Of a stretch of 64,000 bases of DNA, positions 1-57,847 are shown in pieces. The notes below the pieces were generated by a model. That model searched no databases and was not told the DNA's origin. It saw nothing but the letters and a program-made list of their open reading frames with translations. How positions within the stretch are numbered: position 1 is the stretch's first letter; every line of letters starts with the position of its first letter. The translations under genes and the position numbers were made by a program. This stretch comes from Escherichia coli O127:H6 str. E2348/69 (GTDB lineage Bacteria > Pseudomonadota > Gammaproteobacteria > Enterobacterales > Enterobacteriaceae), in assembly GCF_000026545.1 (NCBI RefSeq), contig NC_011601.1; one strand, written 5' to 3'.

Positions 1-1348
<1,348 letters not shown>

Positions 1349-1416
1349 CCTTAAAGAAGCGTACTTTGAAGTGCTCACACAGATTGTCTGATGAAAATGA
1401 GCAGTAAAACCTCTAC

Positions 1417-1493
<77 letters not shown>

Positions 1494-1535
1494 AATTTGC
1501 ACCGCAAATTTGAAGAGGTTTTAACTACATGTTAT

Positions 1536-1611
1536 GGGGCTATAGCTCAGCTGGGAGAGCGCCTGCTTTGCACGCAGGAGGTCTGCGGTTCGATCCCGCA
1601 TAGCTCCACCA
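1536..1611 (+). tRNA. alaT: tRNA-Ala (anticodon TGC) in the 16S-23S spacer
   Basis: 76-nt sequence GGGGCTATAGCTCAGCTGGGAGAGCGCCTGCTTTGCACGCAGGAGGTCTGCGGTTCGATCCCGCATAGCTCCACCA. Confidence 0.95.
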
Positions 1612-1794
1612 TCTCTGTAGTGATTAAATAAAAAATACTTCAGAGTGTACCTGCAAAGGTTCACTGCGAAGTTTTGCTCTTTAAAAATCTGGATCAAGCT
1701 GAAAATTGAAACACTGAACAACGAGAGTTGTTCGTGAGTCTCTCAAATTTTCGCAACACGATGATGGATCGCAAGAAACATCTTCGGGTTGTGA

Positions 1795-4698
<2,904 letters not shown>

Positions 4699-4796
4699 AC
4701 AACGCCGAAGATGTTTTGGCGGATTGAGAGAAGATTTTCAGCCTGATACAGATTAAATCGACAGGTCATAACGTGACGTGTTGATAAAACAGAATT

Positions 4797-4916
4797 TGCC
4801 TGGCGGCCTTAGCGCGGTGGTCCCACCTGACCCCATGCCGAACTCAGAAGTGAAACGCCGTAGCGCCGATGGTAGTGTGGGGTCTCCCCATGCGAGAGTA
4901 GGGAACTGCCAGGCAT
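4797..4916 (+). rRNA. rrfA: 5S ribosomal RNA
   Basis: 120-nt sequence TGCCTGGCGGCC...GGGAACTGCCAGGCAT matching enterobacterial 5S. Confidence 0.95.
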
Positions 4917-13865: not shown

Positions 13866-14013
13866 GATTCGCCTGAACATGCCCTTTTTTCGTAAGTAAG
13901 CAACATAAGCTGTCACGTTTTGTGATGGCTATTAGAAATTCCTATGCAACAACTGAAAAAAAATTACAAAAAATGCTTTCTGAACTGAACAAAAAAGAGT
14001 AAAGTTAGTCGCG

Positions 14014-14122
14014 TAGGGTACAGAGGTAAGATGTTCTATCTTTCAGACCTTTTACTTCACGTAATCGGATTTGGCTGAATATTTTAGCCGCCCCAGTCAG
14101 TAATGACTGGGGCGTTTTTTAT
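14014..14122 (+). ncRNA. spf: Spot 42 small regulatory RNA
   Basis: Sequence GTAGGGTACAGAGGTAAGATGTTCTATCTTTCAGACC...GCCGCCCCAGTCAGTAATGACTGGGGCGTTTTTTA recognised as Spot 42, ending in its intrinsic terminator; lies directly downstream of polA as expected. Confidence 0.85.
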
Positions 14123-15149: not shown

Positions 15150-15394
15150 ATAGAGCGAGGACGCTAACAGGAACAATGACTCAGGATGAGGGTCAGGAGC
15201 GCCAGGAGGCGAAGACAGAGGATTGTCAGGAAGATAAACGTCCGGAGACGTAATTAAATGGAAATGGAATCAACACGGATTGTTCCGGCTAATGGAAAAA
15301 CAGGGTGTGTTGGCGGCCTGCAAGGATTGTAAGACCCGTTAAGGGTTATGAGTCAGGAAAAAAGGCGACAGAGTAATCTGTCGCCTTTTTTCTT
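15150..15394 (+). ncRNA. csrC: CsrC small RNA (CsrA-sequestering)
   Basis: About 245 nt containing many GGA motifs (CAGGATGAGGGTCAGGAGCGCCAGGAGGCGAAGACAGAGGATTGTCAGGAAG...) and ending in the terminator AAAAAAGGCGACAGAGTAATCTGTCGCCTTTTTTC; between engB and yihI as in E. coli. Ends are approximate. Confidence 0.75.
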
Positions 15395-15460
15395 TGCTTG
15401 CTTTCTGTTAGATTCCGCCGCAAATCTATACTGAATAAAACGGCTAAAAGACGAACCATT

Positions 15461-17589: not shown

Positions 17590-17760
<171 letters not shown>

Positions 17761-22213: not shown

Positions 22214-22261
22214 GCACCAATATAGTGCTTCAATGGAAACATTAAGCACCATATTGGTGCA
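22214..22261. promoter_or_regulatory. Tandem NtrC enhancer binding sites upstream of glnAp2
   Basis: Two dyad-symmetric sites TGCACCAATATAGTGCT and GCACCATATTGGTGCA resembling the NtrC consensus TGCACCA-N3-TGGTGCA, about 100-140 nt upstream of the sigma-54 promoter. Confidence 0.75.
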
Positions 22262-22412
22262 ATGACCTTTGGATAACCCTTTTTATGCTCCGTGAAAGCG
22301 ATCACAAAGGGACTCTGCAATACTTGTTTGCGGAGGATGTTTGTGATCCTGTTTTGTAGTGCGATTAATCCGTGTACAATAACGCGCTATTTCTAATGCC
22401 TGAGGCAAAGTT

Positions 22413-38776: not shown

Positions 38777-39706
38777 TTACTCCCCTTCACCCGGAAACAG
38801 GAACGGGTTAATGGAACTACGGGCATAGCCTTCTTGCTCCATTCGCGCGTCCAGTACCAGAGAGGCGAGGTCATCTGCCACGGCTTCAACTTTCGGTTCT
38901 TTTTCCTGATAAAGAATCTTCAGGTAAGTGCCGCAGTCATCGCAGCTTTCGGCTTTAATCGCGGCCTGTTCGTCATCCAGCGACCAGTAATGCAGTTTGC
39001 CGCTCTGTTCACAGTTGCTGCATTTTACGCGCACTACGTGCCATTCAGTTTCACACAGGTTGCAGCGCAGGTAACGCAGACCCTGAGTGGTGCCAATTTG
39101 CACCATGCTGGACACCGGCATAGAGCCACATACCGGGCAATATTGACGTTGTTCGCCGTATTCAGCGCGGGCTTTGCCGGGGATCAGATTAGCCATCTGC
39201 GCCCAGTAGAGCGACAGCGCAGCCCAGATAAACGGCGCTTTATCGCTGCTGACGGACGAGAAATCAGAGGCAAACAGCGCGCTGGCCATATCTTCCAGCT
39301 CCTGAGTCGATGCCTTCTCCAGATTCTCAATCACTGCCAGCGCCGGGCCGCTCATTTCAGGTTTCAGCTCAGCAATTAGCGCCATCAGCAGCTTTTGCCA
39401 GTGCTTATCACGCGGCAGAACGTGAATATCCAGCGGGGGCTTGCCCTGTGCGCTGGCTTCTTTAATGCGCGCGGTCAGATCCATCTCCAGCGGATGGTCG
39501 TACAGCACCACTTCCTGGGCGTGGGCGATAAGCGCAGCAAAGCGCAGGTAATCACCCAGCGGATTATTTTCTGCCAGCTCGCGCAGACGCTCGGCGCGGC
39601 GGTTGTATAAATTCTTGAGCCGAGGGAACAATAACGGCGGAATCATATCCGCCGTACGTTTCTCGCTCGAACCCAGCTCATCTTGCGGGATTATGCGAAT
39701 ACTCAT
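38777..39706 (-). CDS. fdhE: Formate dehydrogenase formation protein FdhE
   Basis: 309-aa ORF with four CxxC pairs ([27 protein letters not shown]). Confidence 0.93.
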
Positions 39707-40338
39707 TCAGCTTTCTTTTCCGTTGTCTTGCGGACCTCACGGTACCAGCGCGGGTGATGTTTCTTTGCCCAGGCGCTGGTCACCCATCCTTCCACCATGG
39801 CGGTAATCGTGCCTTTCACCCAAAGGGCGGCGTAGATATGCACCATGATAACCACAATTAACGCCACTGCGGCAAATGAATGCAGCATTAACGCGAATCG
39901 GATCACCGGGATTGAGAAAGCAGGCGCAAAATAAGGACGCCAGATAATCACGCCGCTCACCAGCAGCAGAACCAGGAAAATAATCGCCGCCCAGAAAACG
40001 CATTTCTGACCGAAGTTATAACGCCCGGTGTCACCTACTTCCTCGTTGACGACGATCTTACGAATATTCTTCGCCCAAAAGATATCATCCCGATTGATTA
40101 GGTTGTGATGCCAGTAACGGAAAAACATGATGATGAACGAGGCAAACATAACCACGCCGACAAACGGGTGCAGAATGCGCGCCAGCTGCGGTGTGCCCAT
40201 GATTTGCATCAACCAGTTGAAGGACGGGAACAAAAAGCCCAGCCCGCTCACCGCCGCCAGGATGAAGCAGAAGGCGGTGATCCAGTGGTTGATACGTTCC
40301 GGCGCGGTGTAGCGCACGATGGTGTCACGTCGTTTCAT
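39703..40338 (-). CDS. fdoI: Formate dehydrogenase-O cytochrome b556 subunit
   Basis: 211-aa membrane ORF with haem-ligand histidines; overlaps fdoH stop. Confidence 0.9.
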
Positions 40339-41237
40339 TTGCGCTCCTCGTCTTTCTCTTCGTGCAGATTATTCTCTTCCTCATCCGCACGGTTCGGACC
40401 GACACCCACGTAGTGGAAGATACTGGCTGCGAAGGTAGCCGCAAAGCCAACAGCTGCGAGCGGTTTCCAGATGCCTTTCCAGAATTTCACGGTTTCGCTG
40501 ATTTCCGGGTTCTCCGGCAAGCCATGATACAGATTTGGCTTGTCAGCATGGTGCAGCACGTACATAACATGTGTACCACCGACGCCTGCCGGGTCGTACA
40601 AACCCGCATTGTCGTAACCACGGGTTTTCAGCTCCGCCACGCGCTCGCTCGCCAGCGTTTTCATCGACTCTTTCGTACCGAAGTGAATCGCGCCCGTTGG
40701 GCAGGTCTTCACGCAGGCCGGTTCTTGCCCAACCACCACGCGGTCAACGCACAGCGTACATTTGTAGACGCGGTTGTCTTCCGGGTTGAGGCGCGGAATG
40801 TCGAACGGACAGCCCGCAATGCAATAACCGCAGCCGATGCACTGCTCGGACTGGAAGTCGACGATACCGTTGGAATACTGAATAATTGCCCCTTCCGCCG
40901 GGCACGCTTTCAGGCAGCCTGGATCGGAACAGTGCATACAGCCGTCTTTGCGGATCAGCCATTCCAGTTTGTCGTTCTGCTCCACTTCCGAGAATCGCAT
41001 CACCGTCCACGATTTGGCACTTAAATCATTGGGGTTGTCGTACACCCCAATGTTATTGCCGACGGTATCGCGAATGTCGTTCCACTCTGAACACGCCACC
41101 TGACAGGCTTTACAGCCGATACAGGTGGTAACGTCGATGAGTTTCGCCACTTCTTCCTGGAAGTCCCGCGCCTGAGGCGCGGGGGTCAGACCGTTAGTCG
41201 CGGAACGACGAATGATATCTTGCGATTGATAAGCCAT
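40335..41237 (-). CDS. fdoH: Formate dehydrogenase-O iron-sulfur subunit
   Basis: 300-aa ORF with four ferredoxin-type Cys clusters ([44 protein letters not shown]...C) and a C-terminal transmembrane anchor. Confidence 0.93.
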
Positions 41238-41249
41238 ATGTCGTCTCCG

Positions 41250-44200
41250 TTACACCTTTTCCACATTCACAAGGAAGGACTTAAACTCCGGCGTCTGCGT
41301 GTTCGCATCACCGACGAATGGCGTCAACGTATTGGCAATAAAGCCTTTTTTCGCAACACCTTCATAGCCCCAGTGAATCGGAATACCGATGGTATCGATA
41401 TCTTTGCCGTTTGCTTTCAGCGTGCGAATACGTTTGGTCACTACCGCTTTGGCTTTGATATAGCCACGGTTGGAGGAGACTTTCACAGTATCGCCCTGGG
41501 CAATGCCAAGTTTATTCGCCAGCGACTCCCCGATTTCCACAAACTGCTCTGGTTGCAAAATCGCATTCAACAGCGCGTGTTTGGTCCAGTAGTGGAAGTG
41601 CTCGGTCAGACGATAGGTGGTTCCGACATACGGGAACTTATCGGCTTTACCCAATGCTTCGGCGTCGTCTTTAAAGATACGCGCAGCCGGGTTCGAGATA
41701 ACGTTTGGATGCAGCGGGTTAGTTCCCAGCGGCGTTTCAAACGGCTCGTAGTGTTCCGGGAACGGACCTTCCGCCATCTTATCGAGGGCAAACAGACGTC
41801 CCATGCCTTCCTGCTGCATGATAAACGGCCCTACGCCGCTGCCCGGAGGCGCTGCGCTGTAGTCCGGAATATCCCAGCCGGTCCACTTAGTGCCGTCCCA
41901 TTTCAGCAACTGACGCTTCGGATCCCATGGGTTACCCTGCGGATCTGCGGAGGCGCGGTTATACAGAATGCGGCGGTTTAGCGGCCATGCCCATGCCCAG
42001 CCCAGCGTGTTACCGAGGCCAGACGGATCGGCGTTATCACGACGCGCCATCTGGTTGCCTTCCGGCGTCCAGCTACCGGCGAAAATCCAGCAGCCACAGG
42101 AGGTTGTACCGTCATCGCGCAGTTGGGCGAACGAGCTAAGTTGTTGGCCTTTCTTGACGATAACCGCACCGGTTGCCGGGTCGGTAATATCGGCCAGCGC
42201 TTTGCCGTTGCTCTCCATTGCCACTTCTTCTGAAGATGGCTCATGCGGAATGGCGTAGTTCCAGGTCATGTTCAGCACCTGGTCCGGGTTCGCGCCACCC
42301 TGTTCGGCATACATCTTGCGCAAGCGCAGGAAGATACCGGAGAGGATCTCGCCATCAGTCAGCGCAATCCCCGGGGCGTCCGCACCTTTCCAGTGCCACT
42401 GTAACCAGCGACCTGAGTTAACGATAGAACCGTTCTCTTCCGCGAAGCAGGTCGATGGTAGACGGAACACTTCGGTCTGGATCTTCGACGAGTCAACTTC
42501 GTTCAGCTCACCGTGGTTCTGCCAGAAGTTAGAGGTTTCAGTGTTCAGCGGGTCGATAGTCACGAGGAATTTCAGCTTCGACAGACAGCCGATCACTTTG
42601 TTTTTGTTCGGGAATGAGGCAACAGGGTTAAAGCCCTGGCAGATATAGCCATTGACCTTGCCTTCTTTCATCATCTCGAAGTATTGCAGGACGTCGTAGC
42701 CTTTATCCCACTTCGGCAACCAGTCAAAGCCCCAGCTATTTTCCGCCGTCGCTTTATCACCAAAGAAGGCCTTCATCATAGAGACGAAGAATTTCGGGTA
42801 GTTGCCCCAGTAGTTTACCTGGCCTTCCAGCAGCGGTTTTGGCGTGTTGGCGGTAAGGTAGGTTTGCAGATCGGTCTGCTTCTCGCTTGGCAGCGTCATG
42901 TAACCTGGCAGGCTCTGCGACAGCAGCCCCAGGTCGGTCAGCCCCTGAATATTGGAGTGACCGCGCAGGGCGTTAACGCCGCCGCCAGCCATCCCCATAT
43001 TGCCGAGCAGCAACTGGATCATCGCCATCGTACGGATGTTCTGCGCACCGATGGAGTGTTGCGTCCAGCCGAGCGCGTAAAGGAACGAGGCAGTTTTATC
43101 GTGAGCACTGGTTTCGGCGATGTATTCGCAGACTTTCAGGAATGCGTCTTTTGGCGTACCACAGATGTTTTCAACCACATCTGGCGTGTAGCGGGAAACG
43201 TGCTGTTTCAGCAAGTTCCACACGCAACGTGGATGTTGCAGGGTAGTATCGCGTTTGGCGAAGCCGTTTTCGTCCAGTTCGTAAGTCCAGGTGGACTTAT
43301 CGTACTTGCGTTTTTCCGCGTCGTAGCCGGTGAACAGGCCATCTTCAAAGCCGTAATCCTCACGCACGATCAGGCTAGCGTTGGTATAGGCTTCGGTGTA
43401 TTCGCGGTTGAATTTTTCATTGTTCAGCAGGTACAGCAATACGCCTGACAGGAAAGCAATGTCAGTACCGGAACGGATAGGGGCATAGTAGTCAGCCACC
43501 GCCGCTGTACGTGTAAAGCGAGGATCGATCACAATCAGCTTCGCGCCGTTGTGAATTTTGGCTTCCATCGCCCAGCGGAACCCGACCGGGTGAGCTTCAG
43601 CGGCGTTACCGCCCATCACCACGACGAGGTTGGCATTCTTGATGTCGACCCAGTGGTTGGTCATCGCACCGCGACCAAATGTTGGAGCAAGACTTGCTAC
43701 CGTTGGTCCGTGTCAGACACGCGCCTGGTTGTCGACCGCGAGCATACCCAGCGCGCGGGAGAATTTTTGCGTTAAATAGCCGGTTTCGTTACTCGACGCG
43801 GAAGCACACAGCATCCCGGTGGAGAGCCAGCGGTTAACAGTCACGCCTTCGGCGTTTTGCGCAATGTAGTTCGCATCGCGGTCTTCTTTCATCAGTTTGG
43901 CGATGCGATCAAACGCCTCTTCCCAACTGATTTGCTGCCATTTATCAGAACCTGGCGCACGGTATTCCGGAAACTTCAGGCGGCTTTCGGAGTGGATGAA
44001 ATCCACCAGGCCAGCGCCTTTCGGACAAAGTGCTCCGCGGTTGACCGGGTGATCCGGGTCACCTTCGATATGGAAGATAGATGCTTTGGCGTTTTTTGCT
44101 CCGTCACCGAGGCTGTACATCAACAGCCCACAGCCTACGGAACAATAGGTGCAGGTATTACGGGTTTCGCGGGTGCGCAGCAGTTTATACTGCCGGGTTT

Positions 44201-44300
44201 CCGCGAGTGCTACGCTGGGTGCAAAACCCAGTGCCGCTGCCGTGGTGCCTGCCATACCGCCAGCGCAGATCTTAAAGAACTGCCTTCTGCTGACCTGCAT
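41250..44300 (-). CDS. fdoG: Formate dehydrogenase-O major subunit (selenocysteine-containing; in-frame UGA at 43713-43715)
   Basis: Two track ORFs (43713..44300 and 41250..43664) are in the same frame, separated only by a TGA; joined product is 1016 aa with a Tat signal (RRQFFK) and ends ...QARV-U-HGPTVASLAPTFG, the canonical Sec site of formate dehydrogenases. Confidence 0.93.
43670..43712 (-). promoter_or_regulatory. Predicted bacterial SECIS hairpin immediately 3' of the fdoG UGA
   Basis: mRNA sequence after the UGA (CACGGACCAACGGUAGCAAGUCUUGCUCCAACAUUUGGUCG) can form a stem-loop; position inferred from the known requirement for a SelB-binding hairpin directly downstream of Sec codons. 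Fold not computed. Confidence 0.55.
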
Positions 44301-44493
44301 GGATTGCTCCTTGTTTCGACATTGTCACGTCCCATTTACATTCGCTTGCTGCGTGTGCAGGGAGTGGGAGTTATTTTTCTTTGCGGAAGGGGCCGCAAAG
44401 GTCCAGAATTGGCTCAATTTCCCTCCATCCAGGAAGGGTTTGTAACAGAATACCATAATGTTGGTGTGTGTGTTCTTATCTGGTTAATAGAAA

Positions 44494-45330
44494 GTGAAAA
44501 AAACACAGCAAAAAGAAATCGAGAATGTGACAAATATCACAGGTGTTCGTCAAATTGAGTTATGGCGGCGTGATGATTTACAACACCCACGGTTAGATGA
44601 GGTGGCGGAAGAAGTTCCCGTTGCGCTGGTCTACAACGGCATTTCGCATGTGGTGATGATGGCGTCGCCCAAAGACCTTGAGTACTTTGCGCTCGGTTTT
44701 TCGCTTTCCGAAGGAATTATCGAAAGCCCGCGCGATATCTTCGGCATGGATGTCGTTCCTTCCTGTAATGGCCTGGAAGTACAAATTGAGCTTTCCAGCC
44801 GCCGCTTTATGGGGTTGAAGGAACGCCGCCGGGCGCTGGCGGGACGTACGGGCTGTGGCGTATGCGGTGTAGAACAGCTTAACGATATCGGTAAACCGGT
44901 GCAGCCGCTGCCGTTCACCCAGACGTTTGATCTCAACAAACTGGATGATGCATTACGTCATCTCAATGATTTCCAGCCAGTGGGGCAACTGACTGGTTGT
45001 ACTCACGCCGCTGCATGGATGTTGCCATCTGGCGAACTGGTCGGCGGGCATGAAGACGTGGGTCGCCATGTGGCGCTGGACAAACTGTTAGGCCGCCGGT
45101 CACAAGAAGGGGAAAGCTGGCAGCAAGGTGCGGTGCTGGTTTCCAGCCGTGCCAGTTATGAAATGGTGCAAAAGTCGGCGATGTGCGGCGTAGAGATTTT
45201 GTTTGCGGTGTCTGCCGCGACCACACTTGCTGTAGAAGTGGCTGAGCGCTGTAATCTGACGCTGGTGGGCTTTTGTAAACCGGGTCGGGCAACGGTTTAT
45301 ACCCATCCGCAGCGTTTGGTTCATAATTAA
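44494..45330 (+). CDS. fdhD: Formate dehydrogenase sulfurtransferase/accessory protein FdhD
   Basis: 278-aa ORF with conserved CGVCG motif; divergently transcribed from fdoGHI-fdhE. Confidence 0.93.
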
Positions 45331-45640: not shown

Positions 45641-47476
45641 ATGAGTACATTACAGTTACCTGGCAGTTCATATTCTACTGAAGTTAATTTAAACGGCTTA
45701 ATTGAGGTGCTCAGTAAGCACCTTTACTCTACCCCCGTGGTCGCCGTGCGCGAGCTGGTGCAGAACGGACACGATGCGATCGTGCGCCGCAGGATTGAGC
45801 AGCCCGATGCGCCAAAGGATAACCAAATTCGTGTGGTGGCAGACGTGGCGAAGTCCACCATCACCATTACCGATACCGGTGCGGGTTTGACAGAAAGCGA
45901 AATTCACGGCTTCCTGGCAACAGTGGGCGTGGGTTATACCCGAATGTTGCGCCAGCAGGATGACAACACCGGTTTAATTGGTATGTTCGGCCTTGGTTTC
46001 TTGTCAGCATTTGTACTTGCAAAAGAGGTCACGGTGTTGACCACATCCTGGCAAACGCCGGATCAGAGCTGGAAATACCACTCTACCGACGGGCAAAAAT
46101 ATACCGTTACGCCGCATCAGTCCTCGGAAACGGGAACGCAGGTGATTCTGACGCTCAAAGAAGAGTACAGCCATCTGGCGAGTAACAATTTGCTGAACCG
46201 CGTTCTTTCCCGCTACTGTGTATTGCTGCACGAACCGGTCTATGTCGGCGATGCCAGCGAGCCGGTAAATAAACTTCAACCACCGTGGCGTGAAGTTGCC
46301 CCCGAAGGCGTAACCATACACCGCGCGCTGGTACAGCGTAAAAATCTCGCCTTTGCCGCCCAGTTTGAATCCTCCTTCGAACCGATTTGCACCATTCCGG
46401 TGGTGCCAGCGGGAATGAGCGACGCGGTTGGGATTTTATGGATTCAGGATGGCGCGACCTACGGCACCAGCGATAACCGCAACCTGTCGTTGTTTTTGCG
46501 CGGCATGTTACTGGATGATGAAGCGCGTGAGTTGTTACCGCCCTGGGCCGGATTTATTGGCGGCGTGATTGAGTCATCGAAACTGACGCCGACGGCGAGC
46601 AGGGAAGATCTCCAGCGGGATGCAACCTGGGTTGCGGTACAGGAGGCGTTAAAAGAGGCGCTGATTTCTGGTTTGTCCGATCTCGCACAAAATCAGCCAG
46701 AAATCTGGCGGCGGGTATTAATGCGCCACAACGAAGCGTTGCTGGGTGCGGCCTTGTGTGATGACCGTCTGTTTGATTTGCTCAAAGATCGCTTGCAGGT
46801 GCCAACGTCAAAAGGGGCGCTGCTGGCGAAGGATTTACGCGTTAATAACAGCATTCATATTCTGTTAAGCCGCGACGGCGGTTTTGAAGAGATGTTGTTC
46901 CATATTCTGCAACGGCCTGTAGCCCGTGGCGATCGCTATGCGGTGGTGCCATTTTTACGCCGTTGGGCGCTGTTATATCACTGCCGGATTGTCGAAGTCG
47001 GTACGCAAACGGGTAATGAGCAGTTGTTCAGCCTGGCAGAATTACCCAAAGAGCAGGTGGCTTATCTGGAAGAGCATCTCTGCGACGGCGAGCAATTAAT
47101 TATCTCACGCTTCGAACCCGCCGTTTTACCGTTAGTGGTTACACCAGACCGCGAAGCAGAATTAAAACAAATTCTCGAACAGGATGACGCAGATAAACGC
47201 ATCAGTACCGCAGCGTTAATGCTGGCGCGGCAATTTACCTCGCAAATCCAAAAATCTAAAACTTCAAGTCTGTATATCAACCTTAATAACCCCTGTGTCA
47301 TGCAACTGGTGACGGCCTTACAACACCATCAACAGCCAGCGGCAGCATTACGGTTATTAAAATCGCTGAAAGTGATTTTGTGCTCCAGCGGTAATAAAGA
47401 ACAGCAGTGGGATTTACACCAGGCACTGGAAGATTTTACTCAGGTTATTCCTGTCTTAATTAATCAAGGAAAATAA
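45641..47476 (+). CDS. Hsp90/HtpG-family paralog (GHKL ATPase), full length
   Basis: 611-aa ORF aligning by eye with HtpG through the N-terminal ATPase domain: N-box RELVQNGHDA (HtpG RELISNASDA), G1 ITDTGAGL (ISDNGVGM), G2 LIGMFGLGFLSAF (LIGQFGVGFYSAF), and beyond. Not the housekeeping htpG (wrong locus, divergent). Confidence 0.8.
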   Translation: MSTLQLPGSSYSTEVNLNGLIEVLSKHLYSTPVVAVRELVQNGHDAIVRRRIEQPDAPKDNQIRVVADVAKSTITITDTGAGLTESEIHGFLATVGVGYTRMLRQQDDNTGLIGMFGLGFLSAFVLAKEVTVLTTSWQTPDQSWKYHSTDGQKYTVTPHQSSETGTQVILTLKEEYSHLASNNLLNRVLSRYCVLLHEPVYVGDASEPVNKLQPPWREVAPEGVTIHRALVQRKNLAFAAQFESSFEPICTIPVVPAGMSDAVGILWIQDGATYGTSDNRNLSLFLRGMLLDDEARELLPPWAGFIGGVIESSKLTPTASREDLQRDATWVAVQEALKEALISGLSDLAQNQPEIWRRVLMRHNEALLGAALCDDRLFDLLKDRLQVPTSKGALLAKDLRVNNSIHILLSRDGGFEEMLFHILQRPVARGDRYAVVPFLRRWALLYHCRIVEVGTQTGNEQLFSLAELPKEQVAYLEEHLCDGEQLIISRFEPAVLPLVVTPDREAELKQILEQDDADKRISTAALMLARQFTSQIQKSKTSSLYINLNNPCVMQLVTALQHHQQPAAALRLLKSLKVILCSSGNKEQQWDLHQALEDFTQVIPVLINQGK

Positions 47477-47477
47477 A

Positions 47478-49784
47478 ATGGATACATGGGAGTGGTACAA
47501 CAAATATAGTCAAGAGTTGCGTGATGCCGGGCAAGAATATATTCCGCAGCTTATTGATGATTTTTCAGAAAGTGTTTTGCACCTACAAATAGAAAAATGT
47601 GATTCGCTATTGCCGGAAATGAAAGCACTGAATCAAGTCGCCAAAAATCCGTGGCTGGAAATATTTATTGGTCACTGGGAAATGCGTCATCGCCTGACTA
47701 ACTATGAAGAAGGTGAAAAGGTGCTGCCAGACGTGGTAGCGCTGTTTGAAAAAGCGCATCGGGAAGAGGCGAAAGATTGCCCGCAATCTATCTGCGTTAC
47801 CCAGGATTTATCAGCCTGCTACGAAAATATTGACGCACCAGGCTGGGCGAATGAACGCATGGCGGTGTGTGAAGAAACCATCGCGCGCATTGATCCGACC
47901 TGGAGCTGTTTTCAGTGTTTGTCCACTGAATATGCCAGCGCACTGATAGATTCCAAAAGAACAGAGGAGGCACTGGCTTATCTGGATCGGCAAATCGACG
48001 CAGTTAAAGCAGCCGGGAAAGATGATATTGATCCATTACTTTATACTCGCGCCGATATTCTGATTGAACTTCAGCGTTATGATGAAGCACGCAAATTGAT
48101 TGATGAGCTGACAGAAGCCAATGATTACTGGGGCCGCGACCGCATTAGTAATCACCTAAAAAAACTGTACATCATGGCGTTATGCGGGCAGGACGAAGAA
48201 GTCTGGGAGGAATTACCGCGTTGGTCCGATCTGACTCCGCATTCATGGGGGTCATGGCTGAAAATCATTACTGTGTTACTTCCCCGTCATCCACAAAGAA
48301 ACAACTGGCAACTGGCGCGCATCATCCAGAAAATGCTGGAGCAACGTTCACAGGCCGGGGCGCATCGAAAAGTGGTTAATCTGGCAAAACTACAAATCAC
48401 CCTGGCGCTGGAGCGTGAATCCGTCTGGGTTGCCAAAATAGCGATGAAACTGGCCCAGCGACACATGCCAAAATTACGCGCGTTACTGGGCGTCGATCGC
48501 GAGTTTCTCGAACTTAGCGAAAAAATCGCCACCAAAGAAGCAGAGTTGCTTGCTCGTCCGGTTGTAGAAGTACCTGAAAATAGCGACGAAGAAACGCAGC
48601 CAGATCCAGAAAAAGACGTCGAAATATTCCGCCGCGCTTATCTGAACACACCAGACGATGCAGAGTTACTGGGCAAACTGGTCAATGCGTTAAATGCCTG
48701 TAATGCGATTAATGAGTCAATTGAACTTCTGCAACGCTATGTTGAAAGCCACCTCCATGAAGATAATGGTCTTTGCTTCGATCTGTTGGATTTATTGCTC
48801 CACCGTGACGATCTGCAAACCATTGAGCACCTGGCGAAGCAGTATGAACAGGCGGGGCTGCTACATATGGCCTTGTGGTTCCGGGCGCGAGTGATCAACC
48901 AACAGGAAGACTGGAGTGAACTGGAGTCGATTGGACAACAGTTGCTGCAAAACGAAAAAGGGCGTGAGTGGGTTGGCGTTTATCGCATGTGCTCCTGGGC
49001 AGCACAAAAACAGGAAGCCTGGGATCGACAGCTGGATTATTTACAACAATTGCAGCAACTGATGATTAGCCGTGAAGAAGATATTCGTAATCTCCAGTGG
49101 GATATCATGGCGACCGCCAGCATCCTGCAACAATGGGATTTGGTTCGTGCTATTGCTGCTGAACTGGAAATCGAACTCACGGAAGGTGAAGGTTTTATTG
49201 ACGAAAAATGGGGGCTGCTAAACATTCGCTTCCGGGAAAATTATGAATACCGCTATTACTATGCTCAACGTATTGGGCCGGTAACCGCAAGGATCATTGA
49301 GCCAACTTACCGGACCGATTATCCGCAACATGTTGATGAGGTTGTGGTATTCGATGCAGAAATGTTGAATACCCGACCAGAGGATGAGGAAGAGCAGAAG
49401 AATTTCACTCCGCTTTATGGGTGCCTGAAAACCATTATCCCGACCGAATACGGCGAGTCCTGGTTCTGCGAAGGTGTCATGCCTGGTGAAGAAGAGTTTA
49501 ATACTTTCCGTGAGGCGCTCCGTGAACGAAACTGGTACTACTGGAGCAACAGTAATGACGACTATACGTTAACGGACAGTCATCAAGGAGAAGGCGCTGA
49601 GCCGCTGTCTGCATTCTATTTTGTTATCAGTGCGCCGCGTTCAGTTTCTAAAGGTGATATCGACAAGACCTTGCACGAATTGACCGCTGACTGGAAACAT
49701 CCGTTGTGCTGGTGGCGTCTTGCCAAAGAAGCCGGGGCGAATGAAGAGAAACATGCTGCTATTGCCGAGAGATATGGAATGTAA
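47478..49784 (+). CDS. Large hypothetical protein (768 aa), predicted alpha-helical/TPR-like with Cys cluster; translationally coupled to the Hsp90 paralog
   Basis: ATG 1 nt after the upstream stop, with an AAGGAAAA Shine-Dalgarno inside the upstream gene; helix-rich composition, Cys-rich stretch (DCPQSIC...SACYEN...AVCEET...WSCFQC), acidic segment (PENSDEETQPDPEKD); no catalytic motif recognised by eye. Confidence 0.6.
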   Translation: MDTWEWYNKYSQELRDAGQEYIPQLIDDFSESVLHLQIEKCDSLLPEMKALNQVAKNPWLEIFIGHWEMRHRLTNYEEGEKVLPDVVALFEKAHREEAKDCPQSICVTQDLSACYENIDAPGWANERMAVCEETIARIDPTWSCFQCLSTEYASALIDSKRTEEALAYLDRQIDAVKAAGKDDIDPLLYTRADILIELQRYDEARKLIDELTEANDYWGRDRISNHLKKLYIMALCGQDEEVWEELPRWSDLTPHSWGSWLKIITVLLPRHPQRNNWQLARIIQKMLEQRSQAGAHRKVVNLAKLQITLALERESVWVAKIAMKLAQRHMPKLRALLGVDREFLELSEKIATKEAELLARPVVEVPENSDEETQPDPEKDVEIFRRAYLNTPDDAELLGKLVNALNACNAINESIELLQRYVESHLHEDNGLCFDLLDLLLHRDDLQTIEHLAKQYEQAGLLHMALWFRARVINQQEDWSELESIGQQLLQNEKGREWVGVYRMCSWAAQKQEAWDRQLDYLQQLQQLMISREEDIRNLQWDIMATASILQQWDLVRAIAAELEIELTEGEGFIDEKWGLLNIRFRENYEYRYYYAQRIGPVTARIIEPTYRTDYPQHVDEVVVFDAEMLNTRPEDEEEQKNFTPLYGCLKTIIPTEYGESWFCEGVMPGEEEFNTFREALRERNWYYWSNSNDDYTLTDSHQGEGAEPLSAFYFVISAPRSVSKGDIDKTLHELTADWKHPLCWWRLAKEAGANEEKHAAIAERYGM

Positions 49785-57679: not shown

Positions 57680-57847
57680 ACGTCCGTGCCTGTTGCCGGA
57701 TGTACGATCTGTAGGCCGGATAAGGCACTCGTGCCGCATCCGGCATTTGAGCAGGATGCCTGATGCGACGCTGTCGCGTCTTATCAGGCCTACAACTATT
57801 GCCGACCCGTAGGCCGGATAAGGCACTTGTGCCGCATCCGGCAGTGT

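What the first reader, a model, noticed from the sequence alone, without database searches (positions are those of the whole stretch)
43665..43715. Selenocysteine recoding in fdoG splits the ORF track into two pieces
The ORF track reports two minus-strand ORFs (43713..44300 and 41250..43664) that are in frame and separated only by TGA at 43713-43715, in the conserved ...QARV-U-HGPTVASLAPTFG context of formate dehydrogenase catalytic subunits. This is the expected UGA-Sec site rather than a pseudogene. A SECIS hairpin should lie in the 40 nt downstream in the mRNA.
Basis: partly seen in the sequence, partly recalled or inferred. Interest (0 to 1): 0.25.

Follow-up and report, generated by a model that had tools for sequence, protein, structure and literature searches.

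The report
Selenocysteine UGA and SECIS in fdoG
The "stop codon" that splits this gene in two is the well-known selenocysteine codon of E. coli formate dehydrogenase-O (fdoG), followed by its RNA hairpin signal, so the gene is intact and the feature is ordinary and already annotated.

Summary
On the minus strand, 41250..44300 is one 1016-codon reading frame. Its only internal stop is TGA at 43715..43713 (codon 196), in the context QARV-U-HGPTVASLAPTFG.

The gene is fdoG, the alpha subunit of formate dehydrogenase-O. It is 100% identical in DNA to E. coli E2348/69. Its product differs from K-12 FdoG at 2 of 1015 standard residues and is 76% identical to FdnG. fdoH, fdoI and fdhE follow it, and fdhD is divergent upstream.

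Rfam's SECIS_3 model matches 43718..43660 (-) at 84.3 bits against a threshold of 63, and this is the only SECIS hit in the 64 kb. The hairpin begins directly after the UGA. It places the SelB-contact bases U17, G23 and U24 at the same distances from the UGA as in fdhF.

The UGA aligns with selenocysteine 196 in the crystal structure of the paralogue FdnG (1KQF). A 71-nt stretch around the UGA is identical between fdoG and fdnG, although the two genes are only 75% identical overall.

RefSeq already annotates one 3051-nt CDS here. tRNA-Sec is present in the matching strain, and selAB is in 5425 of 5426 E. coli genomes.

One caveat: folding energy alone is not significant (z = -0.45 to -1.44). 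This is a textbook feature, already known and of low interest.

The parts
41250..44300 (-). fdoG, alpha (catalytic, molybdopterin/selenocysteine) subunit of formate dehydrogenase-O. It is one 1016-codon CDS including the UGA-Sec codon, with a twin-arginine signal (SRRQFFK) at the N-terminus.
   Evidence: Translation shows a single internal stop. TIGR01553 matches both halves contiguously, at profile positions 1-194 and 196-1009. RefSeq annotates a single CDS, WP_012579028.1, at the same coordinates. The product is 99.8% identical to K-12 FdoG.
43713..43715 (-). UGA codon 196, decoded as selenocysteine (the Mo ligand of the active site).
   Evidence: It aligns with X196 (Sec) of PDB 1KQF chain A. 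The same TGA is present in K-12 fdoG, fdnG and fdhF.
43660..43718 (-). Bacterial SECIS element (full-length Rfam SECIS_3 match). The stem-loop proper is 43712..43670 (+4..+46 from the U of UGA).
   Evidence: RF01989 scores 84.3 bits against a gathering score of 63, E = 2e-19, over model positions 1-59 of 59. It is the only SECIS hit in the window. The MFE structure contains the same hairpin.
43684..43701 (-). Apical SelB-binding mini-hairpin (+15..+32): G15G16 pair with C31C32, U17 (43699) is bulged, the 5-bp stem is AGCAA/UUGCU, and the loop holds G23 (43693) and U24 (43692).
   Evidence: The positions were counted directly on the sequence. U17, G23 and U24 are given as SelB determinants in the review PMC8659212. 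The same positions are occupied in fdhF.
43648..43718 (-). A 71-nt run of perfect nucleotide identity with the paralogue fdnG, including all synonymous sites.
   Evidence: It is the longest identical run in the 3000-nt alignment. The next longest is 36 nt. Overall identity is 74.9%, and 56% at third codon positions. None of 5000 simulations reached 71; the maximum was 52.
40335..41237 (-). fdoH, the Fe-S beta subunit.
   Evidence: TIGR01582 scores 478 bits. RefSeq annotates it as fdoH.
39703..40338 (-). fdoI, the cytochrome b556 gamma subunit.
   Evidence: NF007924 scores 453 bits, against 244 bits for the FDH-N gamma model. RefSeq annotates it as fdoI.
38777..39706 (-). fdhE, a formate dehydrogenase accessory protein.
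   Evidence: NF002925 scores 600 bits. RefSeq annotates it as fdhE.
44494..45330 (+). fdhD, the divergently transcribed accessory sulfurtransferase.
   Evidence: TIGR00129 scores 339 bits. RefSeq annotates it as fdhD.

Best explanation
This is the selenocysteine recoding site of E. coli fdoG, the alpha subunit of formate dehydrogenase-O. The mRNA carries UGA at codon 196. The 43 nt that follow fold into the bacterial SECIS hairpin. Its apical part (bulged U17, loop G23/U24) is bound by the C-terminal domain of the specialised elongation factor SelB. SelB delivers Sec-tRNA(Sec), the selC product charged through SelA and SelD, to the ribosomal A site in competition with release factor 2. UGA is therefore read as selenocysteine, and one 1016-residue polypeptide is made. 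After Tat export with FdoH, this polypeptide uses Sec196 as a ligand of the molybdenum cofactor. Shown here: an intact frame, gene identity, the SECIS match, the positions of the determinants, conservation, and the presence of selC in the matching strain. Inferred from established E. coli work: SelB binding, actual Sec insertion, and the Mo ligation.
For: - There is a single in-frame TGA and no other defect.
- NCBIfam TIGR01553 matches the two halves contiguously on either side of profile position 195.
- Rfam SECIS_3 scores 84.3 bits against a threshold of 63, full length, starting 3 nt before the UGA. It is the only such hit in 64 kb.
- The 72 nt around the UGA are identical to K-12 fdoG and differ from K-12 fdnG at one base upstream of the UGA. 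They align with the fdhF SECIS.
- U17, G23 and U24 are present at the positions the literature gives for SelB recognition.
- The UGA aligns with Sec196 in the FdnG crystal structure 1KQF.
- A 71-nt identical run with fdnG stands against a 75% identity background, which shows selection on the nucleotide sequence itself.
- The 121 nt around the site are at least 99% identical in 5424 E. coli records.
- RefSeq annotates one CDS across the UGA.
- tRNA-Sec is annotated in E2348/69. selC is in 5424 and selAB in 5425 of 5426 E. coli genomes.
- The literature lists fdoG as one of the three E. coli selenopolypeptide genes (PMC4009273).
Against: - Nothing found contradicts the explanation.
- Thermodynamic folding alone is weak: the MFE of the 48-56 nt after the UGA is not significantly lower than that of shuffles, with z = -1.44 and -0.45.
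- The Rfam consensus structure and the ViennaRNA MFE differ by one register in the lower stem. Rfam bulges C14 and ViennaRNA bulges G47, and under the Rfam register two lower-stem pairs are non-canonical in this sequence (A·G and A·C).
- Sec insertion itself was not and cannot be observed from sequence.
- selD was not checked, and selAB was checked only across the species, not in the specific strain.
Confidence: 0.97

Rival explanations
1. fdoG is a pseudogene inactivated by a nonsense mutation at codon 196.
For: A naive ORF caller splits the gene at a TGA.
Against: - The same TGA is in the K-12 reference genes fdoG, fdnG and fdhF.
- The surrounding 121 nt are at least 99% identical in 5424 records.
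- The 820 codons downstream are intact and differ from K-12 at two residues.
- The position is the Sec residue in a solved structure.
- A curated SECIS model matches directly after it.
Confidence: 0.01
2. The UGA is a genuine stop, and two separate polypeptides are made: 195 aa, and 804 aa starting from the ATG at 43664.
For: Both pieces appear as ORFs. The ATG at 43664 is a possible start.
Against: - Met213 is an internal residue of the conserved GAMTNHW motif, shared with FdnG and (as GAMSN) with FdhF.
- The 16 codons between the TGA and the ATG are in frame, stop-free, and conserved as protein (HGPTVASLAPTFGRGA).
- The family HMM and the crystal structure span the junction without a break.
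- RefSeq annotates one CDS.
Confidence: 0.01
3. The UGA is read through by a near-cognate standard tRNA (Cys or Trp) rather than by Sec-tRNA, giving a Cys/Trp196 enzyme.
For: No tool result here supports this. From general knowledge, low-level SECIS-dependent but selenium-independent suppression of UGA has been reported for fdhF (title of reference 28 in PMC8659212).
Against: The full Sec machinery is present in the species and selC in the strain. The SECIS with its SelB determinants is intact. Established biochemistry says FDH-O is a selenoenzyme (PMC4009273). At most this is a minor side path under selenium starvation.
Confidence: 0.01

Closest known systems
E. coli K-12 fdoG (b3894), formate dehydrogenase-O alpha subunit, Sec196
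   Same: The gene order is the same (fdhD divergent; fdoG-fdoH-fdoI-fdhE) and the length is the same at 1016 codons. The UGA is at codon 196 in both, and the 72 nt around the UGA are identical. DNA identity is 97.8% over 3000 nt. The proteins differ only at T336S and I418V.
   Different: There are only strain-level polymorphisms. The flank beyond fdhD differs: K-12 has yiiG, while this strain has an ATPase plus a TPR gene pair.
E. coli fdnG (b1474), formate dehydrogenase-N alpha subunit; crystal structure 1KQF
   Same: It has Sec at residue 196 and a SECIS of identical sequence (71-nt identical run). The domain architecture and Tat signal are the same, and the structure shows Sec at the aligned position.
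   Different: It is a paralogue with 76% protein and 75% DNA identity. It sits at a different locus (fdnGHI, no fdhE/fdhD neighbours) and is nitrate-inducible. RefSeq/PGAP nevertheless labels the gene in this window 'fdnG', because the naming HMM, TIGR01553, does not separate the two.
E. coli fdhF SECIS (formate dehydrogenase-H, Sec140), the experimentally dissected prototype of bacterial SECIS
   Same: UGA is followed immediately by a roughly 40-nt hairpin. The first 14 nt, UGACACGG(A/C)CCA(A/U)C, are nearly identical. The GG/CC pairs, bulged U17, and G23 and U24 in the apical loop lie at the same distance from the UGA.
   Different: The apical stem is 5 bp with a 3-nt loop here, against 4 bp with a 4-nt loop in fdhF. 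The 3' half of the hairpin differs in sequence. Rfam places fdhF-like elements in another model (SECIS_2), which scores only 28.1 bits here against a threshold of 70.

Membership tests
Bacterial SECIS element (Rfam RF01989 SECIS_3) | Match to the curated covariance model at or above its gathering score | tested here: met
   84.3 bits against 63, E = 2e-19, model positions 1-59 of 59, not truncated. Reproduced with gathering thresholds on the whole window.
Bacterial SECIS element (Rfam RF01989 SECIS_3) | Located inside the coding region, immediately 3' of an in-frame UGA | tested here: met
   The model starts 3 nt before the UGA (43718). The stem starts at +4 to +6 after the U of UGA.
Bacterial SECIS element (Rfam RF01989 SECIS_3) | Apical hairpin about 11 nt from the UGA with bulged U17 and loop G23/U24 (SelB contacts) | tested here: met
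   U at 43699 (+17) is unpaired between the GG/CC and AGCAA/UUGCU helices. G is at 43693 (+23) and U at 43692 (+24), both in the loop. The criteria are taken from PMC8659212.
Bacterial SECIS element (Rfam RF01989 SECIS_3) | Hairpin more stable than expected for its composition | tested here: inconclusive
   MFE is -14.6 kcal/mol (z = -0.45) for 56 nt and -13.8 kcal/mol (z = -1.44) for 48 nt. Of 200 shuffles, 61 and 21 fold at least as well. The fdhF prototype is no better at z = -0.67, so this test does not discriminate.
Bacterial SECIS element (Rfam RF01989 SECIS_3) | Physical binding by SelB and SECIS-dependent Sec insertion | not testable with these tools
   This needs biochemistry. It is inferred from sequence identity with the K-12 fdoG/fdnG element.
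Selenocysteine-containing formate dehydrogenase alpha subunit (FdnG/FdoG, TIGR01553) | Full-length match to the family with the UGA at the catalytic Sec position | tested here: met
   Residues 2-195 match profile positions 1-194 and residues 197-1016 match 196-1009. The summed score of about 1551 bits exceeds the cutoff of 814. The UGA aligns with X196 of 1KQF_A.
Selenocysteine-containing formate dehydrogenase alpha subunit (FdnG/FdoG, TIGR01553) | Specifically FdoG (FDH-O) rather than FdnG (FDH-N) | tested here: met
   818 of 820 residues match K-12 FdoG, against 619 of 819 for K-12 FdnG. The downstream gamma subunit scores 453 bits on the FDH-O cytochrome b556 model and 244 on the FDH-N gamma model, followed by fdhE, with fdhD divergent.
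Bacterial Sec-decoding system (selA, selB, selC, selD) | tRNA-Sec (selC) present in the genome | tested here: met
   selC is not in the window. It is annotated at 78,682-78,776 of NZ_CP059840.2, the strain whose fdoG region is 100% identical to the window, next to the LEE island. It is present in 5424 of 5426 E. coli genomes.
Bacterial Sec-decoding system (selA, selB, selC, selD) | selA and selB present | tested here: met
   The selAB operon is found at 80% coverage or more in 5425 of 5426 complete E. coli genomes. It was not looked up individually in E2348/69.
Bacterial Sec-decoding system (selA, selB, selC, selD) | selD (selenophosphate synthetase) present | not tested
   Not searched. It is expected from established knowledge of E. 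coli.

The most novel reading that the evidence does not exclude
The perfect fdoG/fdnG identity runs to +68, about 22 nt beyond the 3' end of the SECIS hairpin (43648..43669). This extension could reflect something other than RNA-structure and protein constraints. One candidate is recurrent gene conversion between the two paralogues centred on the SECIS. Another is a functional requirement on the mRNA just downstream of the hairpin, for example for SelB/ribosome geometry or hairpin refolding. The evidence here does not separate these readings from plain purifying selection on a very conserved peptide motif (GAMTNHWV), which has only five synonymous sites in that extension.
Probability: 0.1. 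Interest if true: 0.25.

Novelty: already known. Interest (0 to 1): 0.05.

Why it matters
The value is mainly for annotation. The split ORF is not a pseudogene, and the two pieces should be merged into one CDS with a UGA-to-Sec translation exception, as RefSeq already does. The case also gives two practical lessons. First, ORF-track gaps at TGA inside molybdopterin oxidoreductases should be checked against SECIS covariance models before a gene is called disrupted. Second, a "does it fold" test is not a useful criterion for bacterial SECIS elements, because the real element does not beat shuffled controls. No open biological question is advanced.

Tried and rejected
- **Folding energy as evidence.** I folded 56 nt and 48 nt after the UGA. 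The expected hairpin is the MFE structure, but the z-scores (-0.45 and -1.44) are not significant, and the fdhF prototype is no better at -0.67. I rejected this as a discriminating test and relied on the covariance model and conservation.
- **Rfam SECIS_2 (fdhF-type).** It scores only 28.1 bits against 70, so the element belongs to the SECIS_3 model and not SECIS_2.
- **Pseudogene and split-gene readings.** I considered both and rejected them on the conservation and alignment data.
- **tRNA-Sec in the window.** None is present; the only tRNAs are tRNA-Ile and tRNA-Ala of an rrn operon. I found selC elsewhere in the matching genome instead.
- **Tool rejections.** The search was rerun with Cys as a placeholder. 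Python scripts could not read loci L003 and L004, so the paralogue comparison was run through DNA alignment and its stored alignment.
- **Not attempted.** I did not run a covariation analysis on distant homologues or large database scans. The element is already a curated Rfam family, so the cost was not justified.

Full report
**1. Observation**

Read on the minus strand, the sequence around the finding is ...GCG CGT GTC TGA CAC GGA CCA ACG GTA GCA AGT CTT GCT CCA ACA TTT GGT CGC GGT GCG ATG ACC... The TGA occupies 43715..43713.

The mechanical ORF list contains 43713..44300 (-) at 195 aa and 41250..43664 (-) at 804 aa. The ATG at 43664 is codon 213 of the frame opened at 44300, so the pieces are in frame.

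Translating 41250..44300 (-) gives 1017 codons. The only stops are at codon 196 (TGA) and at the terminator, and the context is ...DNQARV*HGPTVASLAPTFGRGAMTNHW.... There is no frameshift and no second internal stop.

One refinement applies. The ORF pieces are separated by the TGA plus 16 stop-free in-frame codons (43712..43665). These contain no ATG, GTG or TTG, so an ORF caller drops them. The finding's coordinates therefore cover the UGA and almost exactly the SECIS hairpin.

**2. What the gene is**

NCBIfam TIGR01553 (formate dehydrogenase alpha subunit) matches the upstream piece at profile positions 1-194 and the downstream piece at 196-1009. The two halves abut a single missing profile position.

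The downstream ORFs are:
- FDH beta subunit, 40335..41237;
- the FDH-O-type cytochrome b556 gamma subunit, 39703..40338, which scores 453 bits on NF007924 against 244 bits on the FDH-N gamma model;
- FdhE, 38777..39706.

FdhD is divergent at 44494..45330.

The 3251-nt region is 100% identical to E. coli O127:H6 E2348/69. It is present at 80% coverage or more in 5425 of 5426 complete E. coli genomes. RefSeq annotates a single 3051-nt CDS (WP_012579028.1) at exactly these bounds, followed by fdoH, fdoI and fdhE. K-12 has the same arrangement with fdoG b3894.

After the Sec site, the protein differs from K-12 FdoG at 2 of 820 residues, and the first 195 residues read identically. It is 76% identical to K-12 FdnG. 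The RefSeq gene label 'fdnG' on this locus is a naming artefact of the shared HMM.

**3. The recoding signal**

Rfam SECIS_3 (RF01989) matches 43718..43660 (-) over its full length at 84.3 bits. The gathering score is 63 and E = 2e-19. It is the only SECIS hit in the whole window at gathering thresholds. The fdhF-type model SECIS_2 scores only 28.1 bits against 70.

The MFE structure of the 48 nt from the UGA is `.....((((((((.((.(((((...))))))).....)))))).))..`. Counting from the U of UGA as +1:
- G15G16 pair with C31C32;
- U17 (43699) is bulged;
- AGCAA (+18..22) pairs with UUGCU (+26..30);
- G23 (43693) and U24 (43692) sit in the loop.

A review of the E. coli work names U17, G23 and U24 as the conserved SelB determinants. 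They lie in a 17-nt apical hairpin 11 nt from the UGA (PMC8659212). fdhF has the same bases at the same distances.

The 72 nt around the UGA are identical to K-12 fdoG. They differ from K-12 fdnG at one base upstream of the UGA.

**4. Evidence that the nucleotide sequence itself is under selection**

In a 3000-nt alignment, window fdoG and K-12 fdnG are 74.9% identical overall and 56% identical at third codon positions. The longest perfectly identical run is 71 nt at 43648..43718, starting 3 nt before the UGA. The next longest run is 36 nt. In 5000 simulations using codon-position-specific identities, the longest run averaged 23 and never exceeded 52.

Across E. coli, the 121 nt around the site are at least 99% identical in 5424 records.

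**5. The Sec position and the machinery**

A search of solved structures, with Cys as a placeholder for Sec, finds FdnG (1KQF) over residues 1-1015. The UGA position aligns with the X (selenocysteine 196) of that chain. The next hits are Sec-containing Desulfovibrio-type FDHs.

The window itself holds no tRNA-Sec. selC is annotated in E2348/69 at 78,682-78,776, beside the LEE island. It occurs in 5424 of 5426 E. coli genomes, and selAB occurs in 5425 of 5426. The literature lists fdnG, fdoG and fdhF as the three selenopolypeptide genes of E. coli (PMC4009273).

**6. Mechanism**

| Status | Points |
|---|---|
| Shown here | Intact frame; gene identity; a curated-model SECIS directly after the UGA; determinant bases in place; conservation; machinery present |
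| Inferred from established E. coli biochemistry | SelB·GTP·Sec-tRNA(Sec) binds the apical hairpin and delivers Sec to the UGA in competition with RF2; the full-length Tat-exported FdoG uses Sec196 as a molybdenum ligand |

**7. Caveats**

- Folding energy alone does not distinguish this element from shuffles. The z-scores are -0.45 and -1.44, and fdhF itself gives -0.67.
- The Rfam consensus and the MFE differ by one register in the lower stem. Under the Rfam register, two lower-stem pairs in this sequence are non-canonical (my own reading). Per the review cited above, the lower stem is the less critical part.
- selD was not checked.

**8. Rivals**

- **Pseudogene.** Rejected, because the TGA is universal in the species and in the reference paralogues, and the downstream 820 codons are intact.
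- **Two separate proteins.** Rejected, because the junction lies within a continuous conserved domain and structure.
- **Near-cognate read-through.** At most a minor path under selenium starvation.

**9. Verdict**

The feature is real, correctly interpreted, and entirely known. It is already annotated as one CDS in RefSeq and is covered by a curated Rfam family. Interest is low.

Noticed in passing
window 45641..49784 (+): Between fdhD and frvR this strain carries two tightly linked genes, with a 1-nt gap, that K-12 lacks; K-12 has yiiG there. The first is a 611-aa GHKL/HSP90-like ATPase (Pfam HATPase_c_3 1.4e-09 and HSP90 4.6e-08, with a weak PADLOC TmtA N-terminal match at 5e-06). The second is a 768-aa TPR protein. 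RefSeq calls them only 'ATP-binding protein' and 'tetratricopeptide repeat protein'. This is a strain-variable two-gene cassette of unknown function and possibly a defence-type module.
   Followed up: partly
window 44271..44469 (-): There is a sub-threshold match (32 bits against a gathering score of 50, E = 5.8e-05) to Rfam RF02778, the 'FdoG-1 5' UTR thermometer'. It covers the fdoG 5' UTR and first codons. Only the 3' part (Shine-Dalgarno, start codon and early coding sequence) aligns well, and the 5' helices are poorly matched. It may be simple sequence homology of the UTR and start region rather than a conserved thermometer structure.
   Followed up: no
window 41250..44300 (-); L001 3701..6751: RefSeq/PGAP labels this gene 'fdnG, formate dehydrogenase-N subunit alpha' in E2348/69 and every other listed E. 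coli record. By synteny and by 99.8% against 76% identity it is fdoG (FDH-O). The naming HMM TIGR01553 does not separate the paralogues.
   Followed up: yes
E. coli plasmid records, e.g. NZ_JBXULY010000002.1 150161..150270 (hit H40): A few E. coli plasmids carry a diverged fdnG-like gene. There are 25 plasmid places for the 121-nt query, and the example is 74.5% identical across the UGA/SECIS region. It is a plasmid-borne formate dehydrogenase with a putative Sec site and was not examined.
   Followed up: no
window 1..4914 (+), 14003..14121, 15150..15403, 17657..17728, 22224..22331, 57714..57790: The window opens inside an rrn operon: the 16S 3' part, tRNA-Ile(GAT), tRNA-Ala(TGC), 23S and 5S. 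It also holds the known sRNAs Spot 42 and CsrC, an ES222 match, and two naRNA4 (REP-derived) matches. All are above Rfam gathering scores. These are ordinary for this chromosomal region.
   Followed up: no
L008 3058..3776 (NZ_CP059840.2 78,058-78,776): In the matching strain, tRNA-Sec (selC) sits next to an IS3 transposase remnant and the espF end of the LEE pathogenicity island. This is the classical selC integration site. selC itself is intact.
   Followed up: partly
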